Source: Candidatus Niyogibacteria bacterium
GTDB taxonomy: Bacteria > Patescibacteriota > Minisyncoccia > HO2-45-28
Assembly: GCA_016432485.1 (NCBI GenBank)
Contig: CP066691.1
Location: forward strand, 587,538-651,537
Direction: 5' to 3'
Length of the DNA stretch: 64,000 bases
Shown here piece by piece: positions 34,979 through 39,133 of this stretch (position 1 is the stretch's first letter; each line of letters begins with the position of its first letter). Made by a program: the position numbers and the translations under genes. Below the pieces are notes generated by a model, which ran no database searches, had not been told where the DNA came from, and saw only the letters and a program-made list of their open reading frames with translations.

Positions 34979-35051
34979 TGCCTGGGGAGGGAATCGAACC
35001 CCCGACGCCTGCCTCTTCAGGGCAGCGCTCTAACCACTGAGCTACCCAGGC
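34979..35051 (-). tRNA. tRNA-Phe(GAA)
   Basis: GCCTGGGTAGCTCAGTGGTTAGAGC..., anticodon loop CTGAAGA. Confidence 0.85.
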
Positions 35052-35724
35052 TTCTTGGTTTTTGCAGATATCTTAAACCAAAAAATTTGTCTTTTTCCAG
35101 AGCACTTTTGATTTTATAGTATTTTCTGTTTAAAAACAAGACATCTTTAGAACGATACATTACAAAGAAAAGTTTTTTAGAATCTCCCTTTGTGTATTCT
35201 AAATTCATGACCCCTTTTCCTTTGTGAAAAAAACCGCTTACACCATAAAACCTTACCAGACTGTCTTTAAGCCATTCTAAAAATGGTAAACTCGCAGAAG
35301 CAAAGGACAATCTAAATCCAAAACTATTTGGCCATCTTTTATCCCAAAATGTATAAAATGAACCGTCTCCATCAAACAATCCTCTGACAAAGTCGGCGAA
35401 GAATTTTTTGGGCACGTTAACTTTTTTAATAGATTTTGATTTTGTCTGTGTAAGACCGATTTCATTTAAAAATTTATAAAACACTATATCACCAAAAGTT
35501 ATCTGAAAATACCTTTTTTCGGAAACACCCCCGCGCCCACCTTTTCCTATTTTGTTTTTGATGTTGAGTGCTATTTTAAATTTTTCTACCAATTCTTTAT
35601 CTGCCGATTTTAAAAATATGTGTCTTTTATCACGAGACAAACACCCATCGGAGGTTATAACACCAATTGCATATGCAAAGTTTGACGACCATTCTATTTT
35701 TACTTTTTGCTGTGGCAGACCCAC
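35017..35724 (-). CDS. LAGLIDADG-family homing endonuclease (two-motif, monomeric type), free-standing
   Basis: Motifs AIGVITSDGCLS and VRGLFDGDGSF. The 3' end overlaps the 5' half of tRNA-Phe by about 35 nt. Confidence 0.75.
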   Translation of the reverse strand: MGLPQQKVKIEWSSNFAYAIGVITSDGCLSRDKRHIFLKSADKELVEKFKIALNIKNKIGKGGRGGVSEKRYFQITFGDIVFYKFLNEIGLTQTKSKSIKKVNVPKKFFADFVRGLFDGDGSFYTFWDKRWPNSFGFRLSFASASLPFLEWLKDSLVRFYGVSGFFHKGKGVMNLEYTKGDSKKLFFVMYRSKDVLFLNRKYYKIKSALEKDKFFGLRYLQKPRSLGSSVVRALP

Positions 35725-36070: not shown

Positions 36071-37396
36071 TTGAACAGAGCCGGAGGAATCAGCGTGCCC
36101 CGCAAAAAACATCAGCCCAAATTGTCCGCTTTAGACCCCGATAGTTTAATGACGAGTTATGATTTTCTGCCCGAATTATCAGAGGGCGCCGTAAAACCGC
36201 CCGTTTTTCTCACTTCAACATTTGCTTTCAAAGGCGCGGGAGAACTAGCTGCTTTAATTCAAACCGCCCATGACAATCGTGGCGGAAAATCCAACGAAGC
36301 ATTGCCGTTAATTTACAGCCGTATTAATCATCCGAACGCCGAGATATTTGAAAAACGTTTTTCTTTATGGAACGGCTCGGAAGAGGCGGCGGTTTTTGCC
36401 AGCGGTATGGCCGCTATCGCTACCACCTCTTTTGCTTTTTTGCGTCCGGGAGATATTTTACTGCACAGTTCTCCTTTATACGGCGGCACAGAGGATTTTT
36501 TTGCGCGGGAGTTAAGAACTTTTGGCATTAAGACTGCGTCCTTTTCGGCGGAAAGCGATTATTCTGAAATAAAAAAAATCGCAAAAAGAGCTTGTCGTCG
36601 CGGGCCCTTGAGAATGATTTTCGTTGAAGCCGCGGCTAATCCCACCAATGTTCTGGCAGACATTGAGGCCTGCGCGGAAATCGCCGAAGAATTTTCTTCC
36701 GGAAAGCGAAAAGCTATCACCGTCGTTGATAACACCTTTCTCGGTCCGCTTTGGCTCAATCCCTTCAAACACGGCGCCGACTTGGCCTTATACTCGGCTA
36801 CTAAATATATTGGCGGGCACAGCGATCTTCTGGCTGGTGTTGTTGAAGGAAAAGCCAAAATGATTTCGCGGTTAAAGAGCGCGCGTACGCGTTTCGGCAA
36901 CATTGCCGGAGCGTTTACTTGCTGGCTTTTGACCAGAAGCTTGGAAACATTGAAATTACGAATGACCGCGCAGGTGAAAAACGCAAGGCGCGTTGCCGAT
37001 TTCTTGCGCGATGACCGGAGAGTGGAAAAAGTTTACTATCCGGAATTTTTTGAAGAAGACAGTAATCAAAACAGGCTCTATGAAAAACAGTGTTCGGCGC
37101 CAGGCGCAGTGGTTTCTTTTGATATCAAGGGCGGTCGAAAAACGGCCTTTAGATTTCTTGACGCCCTCAAGTTCTTTAAGTTGGCCGTAAGTCTGGGCAG
37201 TACCGAGCCGCTGGCCGAACATCCGGCCACGACAACACACTATGGTATTCCTCGCGAAAAAAGAATCCGCCTGGGAATTACTGATAAAATGATCCGTTTG
37301 TCCATTGGTCTCGGTTCTCCGTATGATTATATTTTTGATTTAAAACAAGCGTTAGACGAAGCGGTTCGCGATCGCCGCGCGCGACAGCTTCGTTGA
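36071..37396 (+). CDS. Cys/Met-metabolism PLP-dependent enzyme (cystathionine gamma-synthase / O-acetylhomoserine sulfhydrylase family)
   Basis: YSATKYIGGHSD PLP-lysine motif. Confidence 0.8.
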   Translation: MNRAGGISVPRKKHQPKLSALDPDSLMTSYDFLPELSEGAVKPPVFLTSTFAFKGAGELAALIQTAHDNRGGKSNEALPLIYSRINHPNAEIFEKRFSLWNGSEEAAVFASGMAAIATTSFAFLRPGDILLHSSPLYGGTEDFFARELRTFGIKTASFSAESDYSEIKKIAKRACRRGPLRMIFVEAAANPTNVLADIEACAEIAEEFSSGKRKAITVVDNTFLGPLWLNPFKHGADLALYSATKYIGGHSDLLAGVVEGKAKMISRLKSARTRFGNIAGAFTCWLLTRSLETLKLRMTAQVKNARRVADFLRDDRRVEKVYYPEFFEEDSNQNRLYEKQCSAPGAVVSFDIKGGRKTAFRFLDALKFFKLAVSLGSTEPLAEHPATTTHYGIPREKRIRLGITDKMIRLSIGLGSPYDYIFDLKQALDEAVRDRRARQLR

Positions 37397-37408
37397 AGAG
37401 CTTTAAAA

Positions 37409-37440
37409 AGCCCGTTCAGGGAAAATGAACGGGCTTTTGC
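37409..37440 (+). terminator. rho-independent terminator
   Basis: aagcccgttca-gggaaaa-tgaacgggctt then TTTG. Confidence 0.6.
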
Positions 37441-37460
37441 GATGGAATTTTTTATCTTGG

Positions 37461-37532
37461 TGGGCGACGTAGGGATTGAACCTACAGCCTTCTCGGTGTA
37501 AACGAGACGCTCTGCCATTGAGCTAGTCGCCC
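37461..37532 (-). tRNA. tRNA-Val(TAC)
   Basis: Anticodon stem TCTCG/CGAGA with loop TTTACAC; T-arm GTAGGTTCAATCCCTAC. Confidence 0.8.
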
Positions 37533-37547
37533 ATTATTTTTTTAAAG

Positions 37548-37631
37548 TGGGCGGGGGGAGATTTGAACTCCCATGATCTTGCGATCGCTGGCTCCTAAAG
37601 CCAGTGCGTCTGCCGGTTCCGCCACCCGCCC
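37548..37631 (-). tRNA. tRNA-Leu(TAG)
   Basis: Long variable arm, anticodon loop TTTAGGA, acceptor GGGCGGG/CCCGCCC. Confidence 0.8.
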
Positions 37632-37676
37632 GAAACTAAAAAAATTTTACCGCACTTCAGCATTTCATTCCATGTG

Positions 37677-37767
37677 CCCGGGGTGGGAGTTCTCCTTGTT
37701 CGCCCCGCAACAGCGGAAGTCGGAGCCGCGGCTGCCACAGGCAGCCGTTCAAATCCCACCCCGCGCC
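37677..37767. other. GC-rich structured element between two tRNA-Leu genes (9-bp closing stem ggggtggga/tcccacccc, internal hairpins, TTCAAATCC T-loop-like box); not a foldable tRNA
   Basis: About 65% GC against AT-rich surroundings. Sub-hairpins ctgcc-aca-ggcag and palindromic gccgcggc. No D-arm or anticodon arm could be folded. Confidence 0.35.
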
Positions 37768-37785
37768 ATTTCGCTTCGCTTCATG

Positions 37786-37868
37786 TGCCGAGAGTGGGAT
37801 TCGGACCCACATGCCCTTTCGGGCACATCATTTTAAGTGATGCGCGTATACCATTCCGCCACCTCGGC
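37786..37868 (-). tRNA. tRNA-Leu(TAA)
   Basis: GCCGAGGTGGCGGAATGGTA..., anticodon loop CTTAAAA, long variable arm. Confidence 0.8.
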
Positions 37869-38387
37869 TTATTTCTTAAGTCGTCTTCGTCCTCTGTACG
37901 ACGATTTAAGACTATGACAATTAGGACACAATATTTCTAGATTCTCTATTCTGTTATCGTGCCGGTTGCCATTAATATGGTGTAGTTCTAAGGGCAGATA
38001 TCCGTCTATGGTTTTTCTTGCCCATTTACACCTTTCGCAGTGTTTAGGTTTAAGGTTTGCTGAAAAAAGACGGTTTTTTAATTTATAACTTTGAAAATAA
38101 CTTTCTGCAATAAGGATTTTTTCAAGAGGGATTATGGGTTTTCCAATACCTCGCAACCCCGCATTCCACCCTCGTCCTTTGAAATGGCTGACGTCAAGAT
38201 TCAGTTCTCTTATATACTTTTTTAGTTGGTCGTAATTTCCGCCGGCTTCACGAAGCTCCAGTTTGGTCAAAACTTGTCTGTAGCTGAATGAATTTTTGAC
38301 AGACCTCTTTAGCTGATCTGTCGTCCATTTTCTTTTCCTACTCATATATATAATTGATATTTTATCACGAAATGGAAAACGCATCAA
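37869..38387 (-). CDS. HNH endonuclease
   Basis: C-terminal ELHHINGNRHDNRIENLEILCPNCH HNH/His-Me finger motif with paired Cys pairs. The stop codon is directly adjacent to the tRNA-Leu(TAA) 5' end. Start may be at 38345. Confidence 0.75.
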   Translation of the reverse strand: MMRFPFRDKISIIYMSRKRKWTTDQLKRSVKNSFSYRQVLTKLELREAGGNYDQLKKYIRELNLDVSHFKGRGWNAGLRGIGKPIIPLEKILIAESYFQSYKLKNRLFSANLKPKHCERCKWARKTIDGYLPLELHHINGNRHDNRIENLEILCPNCHSLKSSYRGRRRLKK

Positions 38388-38583
38388 TACTTAAGTACTT
38401 ACGCGTCTACCATTATAGTTACATATGAAATTTAAAAAGAACTTGGAGTATATTTACAACAAAGCTCGAACTCATTTTATCAAAAATTTTCAGAAAAAAC
38501 AACGCCCCGTCGCCCACCAATTCGTCGGTCAAAAATCGGAAAGTCTAATTGTGGAGGCCCGGGCGGGAATCGTCCAGCCCTTT

Positions 38584-38658
38584 TGGAGGCGCGAGAGGGA
38601 TTCGAACCCTCGCATAGCGGTTTTGCAGACCGCCGCGTTACCTCTTCGCCATCGCGCC
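38584..38658 (-). tRNA. tRNA-Cys(GCA), CCA encoded
   Basis: GGCGCGATGGCGAAGAGG..., anticodon loop CTGCAAA, U73, then CCA. Confidence 0.8.
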
Positions 38659-38779
38659 GTCAAAAGGGCTGGATTGCAGATCCTTGCCTTTCCGGGGAAC
38701 TCTTTAATATCATTTATTATTGTATGAGTTCCCGTCAAAAGCTATTTAAACGCTTTTGACCCTCTTGGTTACCAGGCCG

Positions 38780-39133
38780 TCATTTTTCTTTTTTTAAAAT
38801 TTCCTCCACTTTCAGCCGCGCTTTTTCGCCCTTGTCTATTTTAAACTCGAAAACAGGCATATACTTGATTTTAAAATGCTCTTTCATATATTTATAGAGT
38901 TCTTTTTTGGAATTTTCAAGAGATCTCATGATTTCTTTTTCTCCGCCCTCCGGCCAGACGCTTATAAAAATTTTCGCCTCTTTAAATCCGGGGGTTATTT
39001 CAATTCTTGTCGCCGTAACCAAGACCCCGACGGCATCAATTTCCCGCTTAATAAAGTCCGCCGCGAGTTTTAAAATGAGCGAATGCGCGCGCCCGGCGCG
39101 CTTGCTCACCCCGTTAGAAAGTTCTTTGCTCAT
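38780..39133 (-). CDS. rbfA: ribosome-binding factor A
   Basis: KH-like RbfA core (RAHSLILKLAADFIKREI...ISVWPEGG); located upstream of infB. Confidence 0.75.
   Translation of the reverse strand: MSKELSNGVSKRAGRAHSLILKLAADFIKREIDAVGVLVTATRIEITPGFKEAKIFISVWPEGGEKEIMRSLENSKKELYKYMKEHFKIKYMPVFEFKIDKGEKARLKVEEILKKEK

What the first reader, a model, noticed from the sequence alone, without database searches (positions are those of the whole stretch)
37786..38387. HNH endonuclease gene whose stop codon abuts tRNA-Leu(TAA) inside a 4-tRNA cluster
The HNH ORF carries a complete His-Me finger with Cys pairs. It ends directly adjacent to the first nucleotide of tRNA-Leu(TAA). This is the second homing-endonuclease-type gene fused to a tRNA locus in this window, and it recalls the homing-endonuclease-rich tRNA region of phage T4. 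Together with the LAGLIDADG case, it suggests that tRNA genes are homing sites in this lineage.
Basis: partly seen in the sequence, partly recalled or inferred. Interest (0 to 1): 0.6.

Follow-up and report, generated by a model that had tools for sequence, protein, structure and literature searches.

The report
Homing-type HNH nuclease docked on tRNA-Leu
A small HNH nuclease gene sits immediately upstream of the tRNA-Leu(UAA) gene in this Patescibacteria (CPR) genome and in hundreds of others, is absent from the same site in related genomes, and behaves like a free-standing homing endonuclease that uses a cellular tRNA gene as its landing site.

Summary
On the minus strand, a 158-aa HNH ORF (38345..37869) ends with TAA at 37871-37869. 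tRNA-Leu(UAA) starts at 37868, so the gap is 0 nt.

The adjacency is not chance. In 78 of 80 related genomes the homologue ends -102 to +36 nt from tRNA-Leu(UAA) on the same strand. The other two abut tRNA-Leu(CAG).

The gene is an insertion. At least 120 metagenome contigs have tRNA-Cys followed by tRNA-Leu(UAA) after 0-29 nt, with no HNH. Sixteen of these share the CPR synteny infB-rbfA-Cys-Leu, and they interleave with occupied genomes on an InfB tree.

The HNH protein averages 66% identity across these genomes, against 43% for the neighbouring InfB.

Occupied sites carry a conserved promoter module: a tRNA-Leu D-arm-like inverted repeat around the -35 box, then an extended -10 box about 7 nt before the ATG.

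Occupied sites also carry a flipped anticodon-stem base pair in the tRNA: C30-G40 in 64/80, against 1/16 of the empty sites (p=3e-8).

Phage relatives (36-51% identity) also lie in tRNA clusters next to tRNA-Leu.

The window's LAGLIDADG gene behaves the same way with tRNA-Phe (6 of 6 genomes).

My best reading is a free-standing homing endonuclease, analogous to T4 SegB and the T5 F-Tfl enzymes but resident in cellular chromosomes. Cleavage and homing themselves are untested.

The parts
38584..38658 (-). tRNA-Cys(GCA), the usual upstream neighbour and left flank of the insertion
   Evidence: ARAGORN and Rfam at 68.8 bits. tRNA-Cys lies upstream of the HNH gene in about 50/80 related loci, mostly 56-150 nt from the start codon.
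38552..38574 (-). Foreign tRNA-Cys 3' fragment (GACGATTCCCGCCCGGGCCTCCA), just downstream of the resident tRNA-Cys
   Evidence: It has 1 mismatch to the tRNA-Cys 3' end of L026 but 11/16 mismatches to the resident tRNA-Cys. Similar fragments occur in 5/51 loci.
38403..38414 (-). Arm 1, AATGGTAGACGC: a tRNA-Leu D-arm-like motif (relic of a tRNA-Leu 5' part) upstream of the -35 box
   Evidence: It is conserved at fixed spacing in most loci. Longer tRNA-Leu 5' fragments sit at this position in L001, L015, L038, L042, L048, L062 and L065. The module HMM hits the window only here.
38382..38387 (-). -35 box, TTGATG
   Evidence: Promoter scan: TTGATG, 17 nt, TAAAAT with an upstream TG, 9/12 matches. 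A conserved TTG occurs at this position in 45 loci.
38371..38382 (-). Arm 2, GCGTTTTCCATT: an inverted copy of arm 1 that fills the -35/-10 spacer (candidate operator)
   Evidence: It lies 19-22 nt from arm 1 and 15-19 nt from the ATG in most loci. The invariant positions GT.T.CC mirror GG.A.AC of arm 1.
38359..38364 (-). Extended -10 box, (TG)A TAAAAT
   Evidence: In other loci TGnTAtAAT lies about 7 nt before the ATG.
37869..38345 (-). HNH endonuclease gene, 158 aa: N-terminal three-helix domain (residues 9-47) plus C-terminal zinc-bound His-Me finger
   Evidence: Pfam HNH_3/HNH. PHROG 10822 at E=2.8e-43. PADLOC 'HEase' at 4.5e-17. AF2 pLDDT 84.6. About 3000 homologues.
37785..37868 (-). tRNA-Leu(UAA), abutted by the HNH stop codon. 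It carries the HNH-linked C30-G40 anticodon-stem pair (CATCA/TGATG)
37458..37784 (-). Rest of the tRNA operon: a 153-nt structured spacer (37632-37784), tRNA-Leu(UAG) at 37547-37631 and tRNA-Val(UAC) at 37458-37532
34979..35724 (-). Sister case: LAGLIDADG endonuclease ORF (35017-35724) whose last 35 nt are the first 35 nt of tRNA-Phe(GAA) (34979-35051)
   Evidence: Homologues overlap or abut tRNA-Phe in L068, L052, L293, L295 and L297.

Best explanation
This is a free-standing homing endonuclease cassette: it lies in no intron and no intein. Its home is the 5' flank of the chromosomal tRNA-Leu(UAA) gene.

The cassette is about 540-600 bp. In order it contains:
- a relic of a tRNA-Leu D-arm (arm 1);
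- a sigma-70-type promoter whose -35/-10 spacer holds an inverted copy of that relic (arm 2);
- an ORF that is leaderless or nearly so, encoding a helical DNA-binding domain and a zinc-bound HNH nuclease;
- with no spacer, the intact tRNA-Leu.

Inferred mechanism:
1. The nuclease nicks or cuts tRNA-Leu genes that lack the cassette. The D-arm and anticodon-stem region is the likely recognition element.
2. The break is repaired from a cassette-bearing copy, using the highly conserved tRNA-Cys and tRNA-Leu genes as homology arms. This copies the cassette into the empty site.
3. Incoming DNA would arrive by uptake or by phage.
4. The D-arm-like inverted repeat around the promoter probably lets the protein repress its own gene.
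5. Because the ORF ends at or inside the tRNA, RNase P maturation of tRNA-Leu cuts the mRNA at or before its stop codon, which would keep expression low.

Shown here: the anatomy, the conserved adjacency, the insertion polymorphism, the linked tRNA base-pair variant and the phage relatives in tRNA clusters.
Inferred only: cleavage, target, homing, autoregulation and the leaderless start.
For: 1. Conserved adjacency. The homologue abuts tRNA-Leu(UAA) in 78/80 genomes, and tRNA-Leu(CAG) in the other 2. These genomes span many CPR classes plus MAGs labelled Elusimicrobia, Omnitrophica and Peregrinibacteria. Twenty-five of 120 database homologues have C-terminal tails that are translated tRNA-Leu.
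2. Insertion polymorphism. At least 120 Cys-Leu(UAA) junctions have a 0-29 nt spacer and no HNH. Sixteen of them show infB-rbfA-Cys-Leu synteny. The empty locus L131 has an InfB 74-76% identical to that of occupied L079, and differs by one clean insertion lying exactly between the two tRNAs.
3. Patchy distribution. Eleven empty sites need 10 state changes on the InfB tree, which equals the random expectation of 10.2.
4. Conservation out of step with the host. HNH pairwise identity is 0.66 and flat, while InfB runs from 0.33 to 0.6. HNH exceeds InfB in 99.9% of pairs. Spearman correlation is 0.13, and nearest neighbours agree in 9/42 cases.
5. Linked tRNA variant. Base pair 30-40 is C-G in 64/80 occupied loci, 1/16 CPR empty sites (p=3e-8) and 3/77 of all empty sites. 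It is the only strongly discriminating column. It holds in 7 of 9 nearest-relative contrasts, with none in the opposite direction.
6. Foreign tRNA-Cys 3' fragments sit at the left junction in 5/51 loci, including the window.
7. The promoter/inverted-repeat module is specific to occupied loci: 46 hits there, 0 in 80 empty sites, and one in the window.
8. Family membership. PHROG 10822 'HNH endonuclease' at E=2.8e-43 and PADLOC 'homing endonuclease'. Phage relatives lie in tRNA clusters beside tRNA-Leu. In E. coli phage mistaenkt the stop codon lies 1 nt before tRNA-Leu.
9. Precedent. T4 SegB and T5 F-TflI/II/IV are homing endonucleases encoded inside phage tRNA clusters, and SegB cuts tRNA genes (PMC2330249).
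Against: - No nuclease assay exists and no cleavage site is known.
- No pair of distant hosts shares a near-identical HNH. The maximum is about 0.79 identity when InfB is below 0.5. Recent cross-lineage transfer is therefore not demonstrated, and the flat 66% could be a saturation plateau of a strongly constrained, vertically inherited gene.
- All 80 copies inspected are intact, whereas selfish endonuclease genes usually leave decayed copies. However, only the best 80 of more than 568 hits were kept.
- tRNA-Leu as a whole is no more uniform among occupied loci than among empty sites (0.685 against 0.703), so long co-conversion tracts are not visible.
- The intact tRNA downstream still contains any target that lies wholly inside the tRNA. 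Self-immunity therefore has to be explained, whether by the 30-40 flip, by nicking only, or by low expression.
- The two arms of the inverted repeat do not co-vary beyond chance (p about 0.07), and no binding data exist.
- Sampling of occupied loci (GTDB genomes) and empty sites (JGI metagenomes) differs.
Confidence: 0.68

Rival explanations
1. Domesticated host gene. Under this reading the HNH protein is an old, vertically inherited CPR protein with a cellular job, such as DNA uptake or scavenging, repair, or control of the tRNA operon. It has been lost repeatedly. Its position next to tRNA-Leu is conserved operon structure, not a homing site.
For: - Conservation is very high and uniform: 66% mean identity, 45 invariant columns, and intact in all 80 loci.
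- Identity rises with host relatedness only for close pairs (InfB above 0.6 gives HNH 0.72-0.87), as expected for vertical descent.
- Synteny infB-rbfA-Cys-HNH-Leu appears in more than half of the loci.
- No near-identical copies occur in distant hosts.
Against: - Empty sites interleave with occupied ones at random on the host tree.
- 15/16 empty sites carry a different tRNA allele (G30-C40). Each loss would therefore need a coupled double substitution.
- The same gene at the same tRNA also appears in MAGs labelled Elusimicrobia and Omnitrophica.
- The closest outgroups are phage homing-type nucleases in tRNA clusters.
- Foreign tRNA-Cys fragments sit at the junction.
- There is no partner gene.
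Confidence: 0.17
2. Retained passenger. Under this reading a phage-derived HNH cassette once landed in front of tRNA-Leu and no longer homes. It persists because its promoter now drives the essential tRNA-Leu and because any deletion risks damaging the tRNA. The ORF is maintained only as the 5' leader.
For: - The cassette separates tRNA-Leu from upstream promoters and supplies its own promoter.
- The ORF abuts or overlaps the tRNA, so sloppy deletions would be lethal.
- Phage relatives exist.
Against: - A mere leader would not keep 65% amino-acid identity, all catalytic and zinc ligands, and an intact N-terminal domain across the superphylum.
- Empty sites show that tRNA-Leu is expressed perfectly well without the cassette.
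Confidence: 0.1
3. Defence nuclease or integrative-element remnant. Under this reading the HNH belongs to an anti-phage system, or to a prophage or island that integrated at a tRNA gene.
For: - Weak HNH-domain matches to ZorE and IscB models.
- tRNA genes are classic integration sites (established knowledge).
Against: - The ZorE match scores 19.6 bits against a cut-off of 600, covers the domain only, and no Zorya partner genes are present.
- No integrase or phage genes are present, and the flanks are infB/rbfA and a PLP enzyme.
- The insertion is about 0.6 kb and lies at the 5' side of the tRNA rather than the 3' side.
Confidence: 0.03

Closest known systems
Phage T4 SegB, a GIY-YIG free-standing homing endonuclease in the T4 tRNA gene cluster (PMC2330249)
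   Same: It is an intergenic nuclease gene inside a tRNA cluster. Related genomes lack it. Its target lies in tRNA genes, in a conserved tRNA motif. It spreads together with flanking tRNA markers. Its expression is thought to be limited by tRNA-type processing of the transcript.
   Different: SegB has a different catalytic fold (GIY-YIG, not HNH). It lives in a phage, not a cellular chromosome. It recognises the T-arm motif of many tRNAs, whereas this family is tied to one tRNA species and abuts its 5' end.
[quoted passage not shown] 2004, as cited in PMC2330249 and PMC5714182)
   Same: They are HNH nucleases whose ORFs lie in a tRNA gene cluster. One CPR homologue (P0120) is labelled 'F-TflIV' by its source.
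   Different: They are phage-borne. No fixed partner tRNA is reported in the texts I could read. I did not test sequence relatedness to the T5 proteins.
PHROG 10822 HNH endonucleases of phage tRNA clusters, for example Escherichia phage mistaenkt (FelixO1-like) gp113 and Synechococcus phage S-CRM01 g201
   Same: They belong to the same protein family (E=2.8e-43, 36-51% identity) and have the same neighbour. In mistaenkt the stop codon lies 1 nt before tRNA-Leu. In S-CRM01 tRNA-Leu ends 69 nt upstream.
   Different: They are annotated only as 'HNH endonuclease'. They sit on either side of tRNA-Leu. They lack the CPR promoter/inverted-repeat module (2 marginal hits) and the C30-G40 linkage.
I-TevI autorepression and T4 MobE (own knowledge; MobE also in PMC2790892)
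   Same: I-TevI binds an operator that resembles its homing site and overlaps its own promoter. This is the model for the D-arm-like inverted repeat here. MobE is a free-standing HNH endonuclease that cuts a conserved neighbouring gene.
   Different: No binding or cleavage data exist for the CPR protein. The targets are protein-coding genes in phage genomes.
Group I introns with HNH endonuclease genes in Patescibacteria tRNA genes (PMC13011429)
   Same: The host phylum is the same, the targets are tRNA genes, and the nuclease is of the HNH type.
   Different: Those genes sit inside introns in the anticodon loop of tRNA-Asn. Here the tRNA is uninterrupted and no intron is detectable. That paper does not describe intergenic nuclease genes next to tRNAs.

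Membership tests
HNH / His-Me finger nuclease superfamily | Beta-beta-alpha-metal fold with a catalytic His, a conserved Asn and a metal-binding His/Asn | tested here: met
   Pfam HNH_3 at 27.9 bits and HNH at 26.4 bits, both above cut-off. H123, N135 and H144 are invariant. The AF2 model has strands at 120-123 and 136-139 and a helix at 141-145.
HNH / His-Me finger nuclease superfamily | Structural zinc site made of two CxxC pairs (present in many HNH subfamilies) | tested here: met
   C103-x2-C106 and C140-x2-C143. C106, C140 and C143 are invariant and C103 is at least 90% conserved.
Free-standing homing endonuclease (T4 Seg/Mob type) | The nuclease gene is intergenic, with no intron or intein | tested here: met
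   It lies between two intact tRNA genes. No group I or II intron model matches 37380-38800. The insertion boundaries are the two tRNA ends.
Free-standing homing endonuclease (T4 Seg/Mob type) | Presence/absence polymorphism at the same locus in related genomes | tested here: met
   Sixteen CPR-synteny empty sites. L131 against L079. Empty and occupied sites interleave on the InfB tree. Strain-level polymorphism could not be tested because the contigs were too short.
Free-standing homing endonuclease (T4 Seg/Mob type) | Site-specific cleavage of the allele that lacks the gene | not testable with these tools
   This needs purified protein and DNA substrates.
Free-standing homing endonuclease (T4 Seg/Mob type) | Gene conversion with co-conversion of flanking markers, or a resistant target variant linked to the gene | tested here: inconclusive
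   In favour: the C30-G40 pair is linked to the gene, and foreign tRNA-Cys fragments occur at the junction. Against: tRNA-Leu as a whole is not more uniform among occupied loci.
Free-standing homing endonuclease (T4 Seg/Mob type) | Gene history not matching host history (horizontal spread) | tested here: inconclusive
   Correlation with InfB is weak (Spearman 0.13) and nearest neighbours agree in 9/42 cases. The gene is present in MAGs labelled as other phyla. However, no near-identical copies occur in distant hosts, and identity may simply be saturated.
PHROG 10822 (phage HNH endonucleases) | Full-length profile match | tested here: met
   E=2.8e-43, with residues 1-155 matching profile positions 2-155 of 245.
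I-HmuI-like intron-encoded HNH endonucleases (HNH_3 + NUMOD + HTH) | N-terminal HNH domain followed by NUMOD helices and a C-terminal HTH, encoded in a group I intron | tested here: not met
   The domain order is reversed: helical domain at residues 9-47, HNH at 100-150. No intron is present. There is no PDB sequence match, and Foldseek finds nothing with E <= 0.001.
Zorya ZorE / RNA-guided IscB | Whole-protein match above the curated cut-off, plus partner genes | tested here: not met
   ZorE scores 19.6 bits against a cut-off of 600. IscB scores 18.6 against 175. Both matches cover the HNH domain only. No partner ORFs are present.
Integrase-mediated island at a tRNA gene | Integrase gene, insertion at the 3' part of the tRNA, direct repeat of the tRNA 3' end | tested here: not met
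   No integrase is present. The insert is 0.5-0.6 kb and lies at the 5' end of the tRNA. The flanks are housekeeping genes.

The most novel reading that the evidence does not exclude
In this reading, a selfish nuclease has become wired into the expression of an essential tRNA, and has shaped that tRNA's sequence, across a whole bacterial superphylum.

- The cassette supplies the promoter, and its mRNA, which is leaderless or nearly so, is the 5' leader of pre-tRNA-Leu(UAA).
- RNase P processing of the tRNA therefore trims the nuclease mRNA at or before its stop codon. Nuclease dosage is thus set by tRNA maturation.
- The D-arm-like inverted repeat is a target mimic that the protein uses to repress itself.
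- The flipped 30-40 base pair is the immunity (or susceptibility) determinant, so the nuclease dictates which tRNA-Leu allele a lineage carries.
- With the LAGLIDADG/tRNA-Phe pair, this would define a general class: chromosomal homing endonucleases docked at the 5' ends of cellular tRNA genes.
Probability: 0.3. Interest if true: 0.8.

Novelty: new variant of a known kind. Interest (0 to 1): 0.66.

Why it matters
Free-standing homing endonucleases are known almost entirely from phages. Here one family, and a second unrelated LAGLIDADG family, occupy fixed sites at cellular tRNA genes in hundreds of Patescibacteria species.

- The finding gives a concrete, testable target: the tRNA-Leu(UAA) gene, base pair 30-40 and the D-arm.
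- It gives a natural marker for DNA exchange between ultra-small bacteria that are hard to culture.
- It offers a possible case of a selfish gene shaping the sequence and transcription of a core translation component.
- It offers compact (158 aa) site-specific nucleases with a conserved natural target, possibly usable as tools in these organisms.
- It complements a recent conclusion, drawn from intron-encoded nucleases alone, that tRNA-linked mobility in Patescibacteria is limited (PMC13011429).

Tried and rejected
1. Known RNA in the 153-nt GC-rich spacer (37632-37784) between the two tRNA-Leu genes. I suspected SRP RNA or another family. Rfam finds nothing, even at E <= 10. The fold z-score is -2.7 on either strand. 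The spacer is found only in same-species contigs. It remains unexplained.
2. Strain-level presence/absence by exact-protein look-up of RbfA and HNH. All contigs are 1-4 kb and break at the tRNA cluster, so the result is uninformative.
3. The inverted repeat as an RNA or DNA hairpin. Within-locus complementarity is not above between-locus complementarity (8.26 against 8.03 Watson-Crick pairs, p about 0.07; with G-U pairs p about 0.19). I therefore treat it as two copies of a sequence motif.
4. The 20-nt loop as a decayed anticodon arm. 'TTAA[AG]' occurs in 9/45 loops against 6.2 expected (p=0.15), so I dropped the idea.
5. A D-loop G/T difference (GGTAGAC against GGTATAC) as the immunity mark. 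It does not separate occupied from empty sites among CPR genomes.
6. Whole tRNA-Leu travelling with the gene. This is not supported.
7. The C30-G40 pair as a family-wide feature. It is not seen in phage tRNA-Leu next to homologues.
8. Solved-structure relatives. No significant sequence hits, and only weak generic HNH fold hits.
9. Defence-system membership and group I intron context. Both rejected.
Full report
**Observation.** All features lie on the minus strand. The mechanical ORF is 37869..38387 (172 aa, TTG start). All homologues begin at 'M(R/K)KRSW', and public gene calls give 158 aa, so the real start is the ATG at 38345. The stop codon TAA occupies 37871-37869. ARAGORN places tRNA-Leu(taa) at 37785-37868 and Rfam scores it at 56.8 bits. 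The gap is therefore exactly 0 nt: the two abut without overlap.

The protein matches Pfam HNH_3 and HNH above their cut-offs. The two CxxC pairs (C103/C106 and C140/C143) and H123, N135 and H144 are invariant or nearly so. An AlphaFold model (pLDDT 84.6) shows an N-terminal three-helix domain (residues 9-47) and a C-terminal beta-beta-alpha finger.

The minus-strand gene order is infB, rbfA, tRNA-Cys, HNH, tRNA-Leu(UAA), a 153-nt spacer, tRNA-Leu(UAG), tRNA-Val, then a terminator. A Cys/Met PLP enzyme converges from the other strand. The organism is a Candidatus Niyogibacteria MAG, judged from the source label of an identical protein.

**Is the adjacency meaningful?** About 3000 database proteins match at roughly 70% identity, from many CPR lineages. 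Many of them have odd C-terminal tails such as ARVAEPGIRAALKML and GGIGIRAALKML. These are translations of a tRNA-Leu(UAA) gene.

A scan of one genome per GTDB species found more than 568 genomes with a relative. In the best 80 loci, 78 have tRNA-Leu(taa) on the same strand, starting -102 to +36 nt from the HNH stop. The gap is 0 in 11 loci, and the ORF runs into the tRNA in about 35. The other two loci abut tRNA-Leu(cag) and have tRNA-Leu(taa) 64-66 nt upstream. tRNA-Cys is the upstream neighbour in about 50 of the 80. The abutment in the window is therefore a family property, not an accident.

**Is it an insertion?** I scanned metagenome contigs for a CPR-type tRNA-Cys anticodon arm followed within 50-80 nt by a tRNA-Leu(UAA) D-arm and anticodon arm. 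At least 120 contigs match. In those read, the two tRNAs are 0-29 nt apart and no HNH relative is present anywhere on the locus.

Sixteen of these loci have the CPR synteny infB-rbfA-tRNA-Cys-tRNA-Leu. Locus L131 is empty, and its InfB is 74-76% identical to that of occupied L079. An alignment shows that L079 differs by a single block of about 540 nt lying exactly between the 3' end of tRNA-Cys and the 5' end of tRNA-Leu.

On an InfB neighbour-joining tree of 42 occupied and 11 empty loci, the empty loci are scattered. They need ten parsimony changes, and label shuffling gives 10.2.

**Conservation.** Among 42 loci that also carry infB, HNH pairwise identity averages 0.66. It stays flat (0.65-0.68) while InfB identity runs from 0.33 to 0.6. 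HNH exceeds InfB in 99.9% of pairs. The Spearman correlation is 0.13, and nearest neighbours agree in 9/42 cases.

This fits horizontal spread. It also fits a strongly constrained protein whose free positions are saturated. No near-identical copies occur in distant hosts, so recent transfer is not proven.

**A tRNA variant linked to the gene.** The tRNA-Leu(UAA) next to the HNH has C30-G40 in the anticodon stem in 64/80 loci. Among CPR-synteny empty sites the figure is 1/16 (Fisher p=3e-8), and among all empty sites 3/77 (p=1.5e-24).

A column-by-column comparison shows this pair is the only strong difference. Pair 27-43 is weakly associated (p=0.005), and the rest of the consensus is identical. 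In nine independent contrasts between an empty site and its nearest occupied relative, seven go in this direction and none in the opposite. The window's tRNA has the linked form (CATCA/TGATG).

Two readings are possible:
- The flip protects the resident tRNA gene from its own nuclease.
- The flip marks susceptible alleles, which have all been invaded already.

Either way it indicates a functional link between the nuclease and this part of the tRNA gene. The one empty site with the linked allele (L138) could be a secondary loss. tRNA-Leu as a whole is not more uniform among occupied loci, so long recent co-conversion tracts are not evident.

**Junction footprints.** In 5 of 51 loci, the spacer after the resident tRNA-Cys holds a second tRNA-Cys 3' fragment. 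In four of these the fragment differs from the resident gene. In the window it lies at 38552-38574, with 1 mismatch to the tRNA-Cys of L026 and 11/16 mismatches to the resident. This is what imprecise recombination with foreign DNA carrying the same Cys-HNH-Leu arrangement would leave.

**Upstream module.** Almost every occupied locus has the same layout before the ATG:
- AATGGTAGACGC (arm 1);
- 19-22 nt containing a TTG (-35 box);
- GCGTcTaCCATT (arm 2, the inverted copy, which fills the -35/-10 spacer);
- TGnTAtAAT;
- about 7 nt, then ATG.

In the window these elements are at 38403-38414, 38382-38387, 38371-38382 and 38359-38364. The simple promoter scan picks up the same boxes.

Arm 1 is a tRNA-Leu D-arm look-alike. 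In seven loci it extends to a full tRNA-Leu 5' fragment, for example GCCCGGGTGGTGAAATTGGTAGACG in L001. The invariant positions of the two arms mirror each other (GG.A.AC and GT.T.CC), but the arms do not co-vary beyond chance. I therefore read them as two protein-binding sites, a candidate auto-operator comparable to the I-TevI operator (own knowledge), rather than as a hairpin.

A profile of the module built without the window hits the window once. It hits 46 occupied loci and none of the 80 empty sites. The short distance from the -10 box to the ATG suggests a leaderless or nearly leaderless mRNA. This is an inference.

**Relatives in phages.** The protein matches PHROG 10822 over its full length (E=2.8e-43), and its best PADLOC match is 'homing endonuclease'. 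In IMG/VR, more than 564 viral contigs encode relatives at 36-51% identity. In the 80 read, most lie in tRNA clusters. About 35 have tRNA-Leu(taa) 16-97 nt upstream, and 11 have it abutting downstream.

In cultured phages the same pattern is visible but not annotated as such. In Escherichia phage mistaenkt (FelixO1-like) the HNH stop lies 1 nt before a tRNA-Leu. In Synechococcus phage S-CRM01 a tRNA-Leu ends 69 nt before the gene. The phage copies lack the CPR module and the 30-40 linkage.

**The LAGLIDADG case.** The ORF 35017-35724 overlaps tRNA-Phe by 35 nt, and its TGA stop is formed by U33 plus G34-A35 of the anticodon loop. Homologues at 56-68% identity occur across CPR, and 54 of 120 end in translated tRNA 5' sequence.

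In all five other genomes checked, the ORF abuts or overlaps tRNA-Phe(GAA): L068 by 32 nt, L052 with a 5-nt gap, and L293, L295 and L297 by 10 nt each. A more distant LAGLIDADG gene sits 64 nt before tRNA-Cys in L053. Two unrelated nuclease families therefore each dock at the 5' end of one particular tRNA gene.

[quoted passage not shown] SegB is a GIY-YIG enzyme in the T4 tRNA cluster. It cuts tRNA genes at the T-arm motif and drives inheritance of its flanks. The T5 enzymes are encoded in the T5 tRNA region (PMC2330249 and PMC5714182).

A 2026 study of Patescibacteria tRNA introns found a few intron-encoded HNH genes in tRNA-Asn. It concluded that mobility is limited, and it does not describe intergenic nuclease genes beside tRNAs (PMC13011429). 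Four other full-text searches found no description of this arrangement.

I place the finding as a new variant of a known kind. The mechanism class, free-standing homing endonuclease in a tRNA cluster, is known. Several aspects appear undescribed in the literature I could search:
- the cellular, superphylum-wide residence;
- the strict pairing with one tRNA;
- the 5' abutment;
- the promoter/D-arm-mimic module;
- the linked tRNA base-pair flip.

**Verdict.** Nuclease activity, the target site, homing, autoregulation and the leaderless start remain inferences. The main rival is an old domesticated gene with repeated loss. It is weakened by the allele linkage, the random scatter of empty sites, the phage outgroups and the junction footprints, but it is not excluded.

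Noticed in passing
window 37632-37784 (minus strand): A 153-nt GC-rich spacer lies between tRNA-Leu(UAA) and tRNA-Leu(UAG). It folds into a three-way junction with a 10-bp closing stem (GGGGUGGGA...UCCCACCCC; -60 kcal/mol, z = -2.7). No Rfam family matches, even at E <= 10. On the plus strand it ends in a tRNA-3'-end-like TTCAAATCCCACCCCGCGCCA. It is found only in same-species contigs (L086-L088).
   Followed up: partly
window 34979-35724 (minus strand); L068, L052, L293, L295, L297: The LAGLIDADG endonuclease ORF overlaps tRNA-Phe(GAA) by 35 nt. Its TGA stop is made of U33 plus G34-A35 of the anticodon loop. The same family abuts or overlaps tRNA-Phe in five other CPR genomes (10-32 nt overlap, or a 5-nt gap). 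54/120 homologues end in translated tRNA sequence.
   Followed up: partly
L053 3152-4577: Two endonuclease genes flank one tRNA. A divergent LAGLIDADG gene (31% identity) ends 64 nt before tRNA-Cys, and this is followed by the HNH gene and tRNA-Leu(UAA).
   Followed up: no
window 38552-38574 (minus strand); L022, L027, L078: Extra tRNA-Cys 3'-end fragments of foreign sequence lie between the resident tRNA-Cys and the HNH cassette. They look like footprints of imprecise recombination with donor DNA.
   Followed up: partly
L081-L088 (contigs with proteins identical to the window's): Every public short-read contig carrying the identical RbfA ends about 47 nt after rbfA, at the start of the tRNA-Cys/HNH region. 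The contigs carrying the identical HNH are only 1.0-1.2 kb. Assemblies of this population break on both sides of the cassette, which could reflect strain heterogeneity there.
   Followed up: no
L223, L262, L283, L244 (viral contigs): In several phage tRNA clusters the HNH homologue sits between two different tRNA-Leu genes, for example Leu(taa) upstream and Leu(caa/tag/cag/aag) downstream. Some phage copies carry premature stops (L255, L258, L270, L284).
   Followed up: no
L138 1765-1945: This is an empty Cys-Leu(UAA) junction (24-nt spacer) whose tRNA-Leu nevertheless has the HNH-linked C30-G40 stem. It could be a secondary loss of the cassette or a still-susceptible site.
   Followed up: no
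window 38425-38727 (plus strand): A 100-aa ORF antisense to tRNA-Cys and the cassette's upstream spacer is called as a gene in public contigs (L086). It is almost certainly spurious.
   Followed up: no
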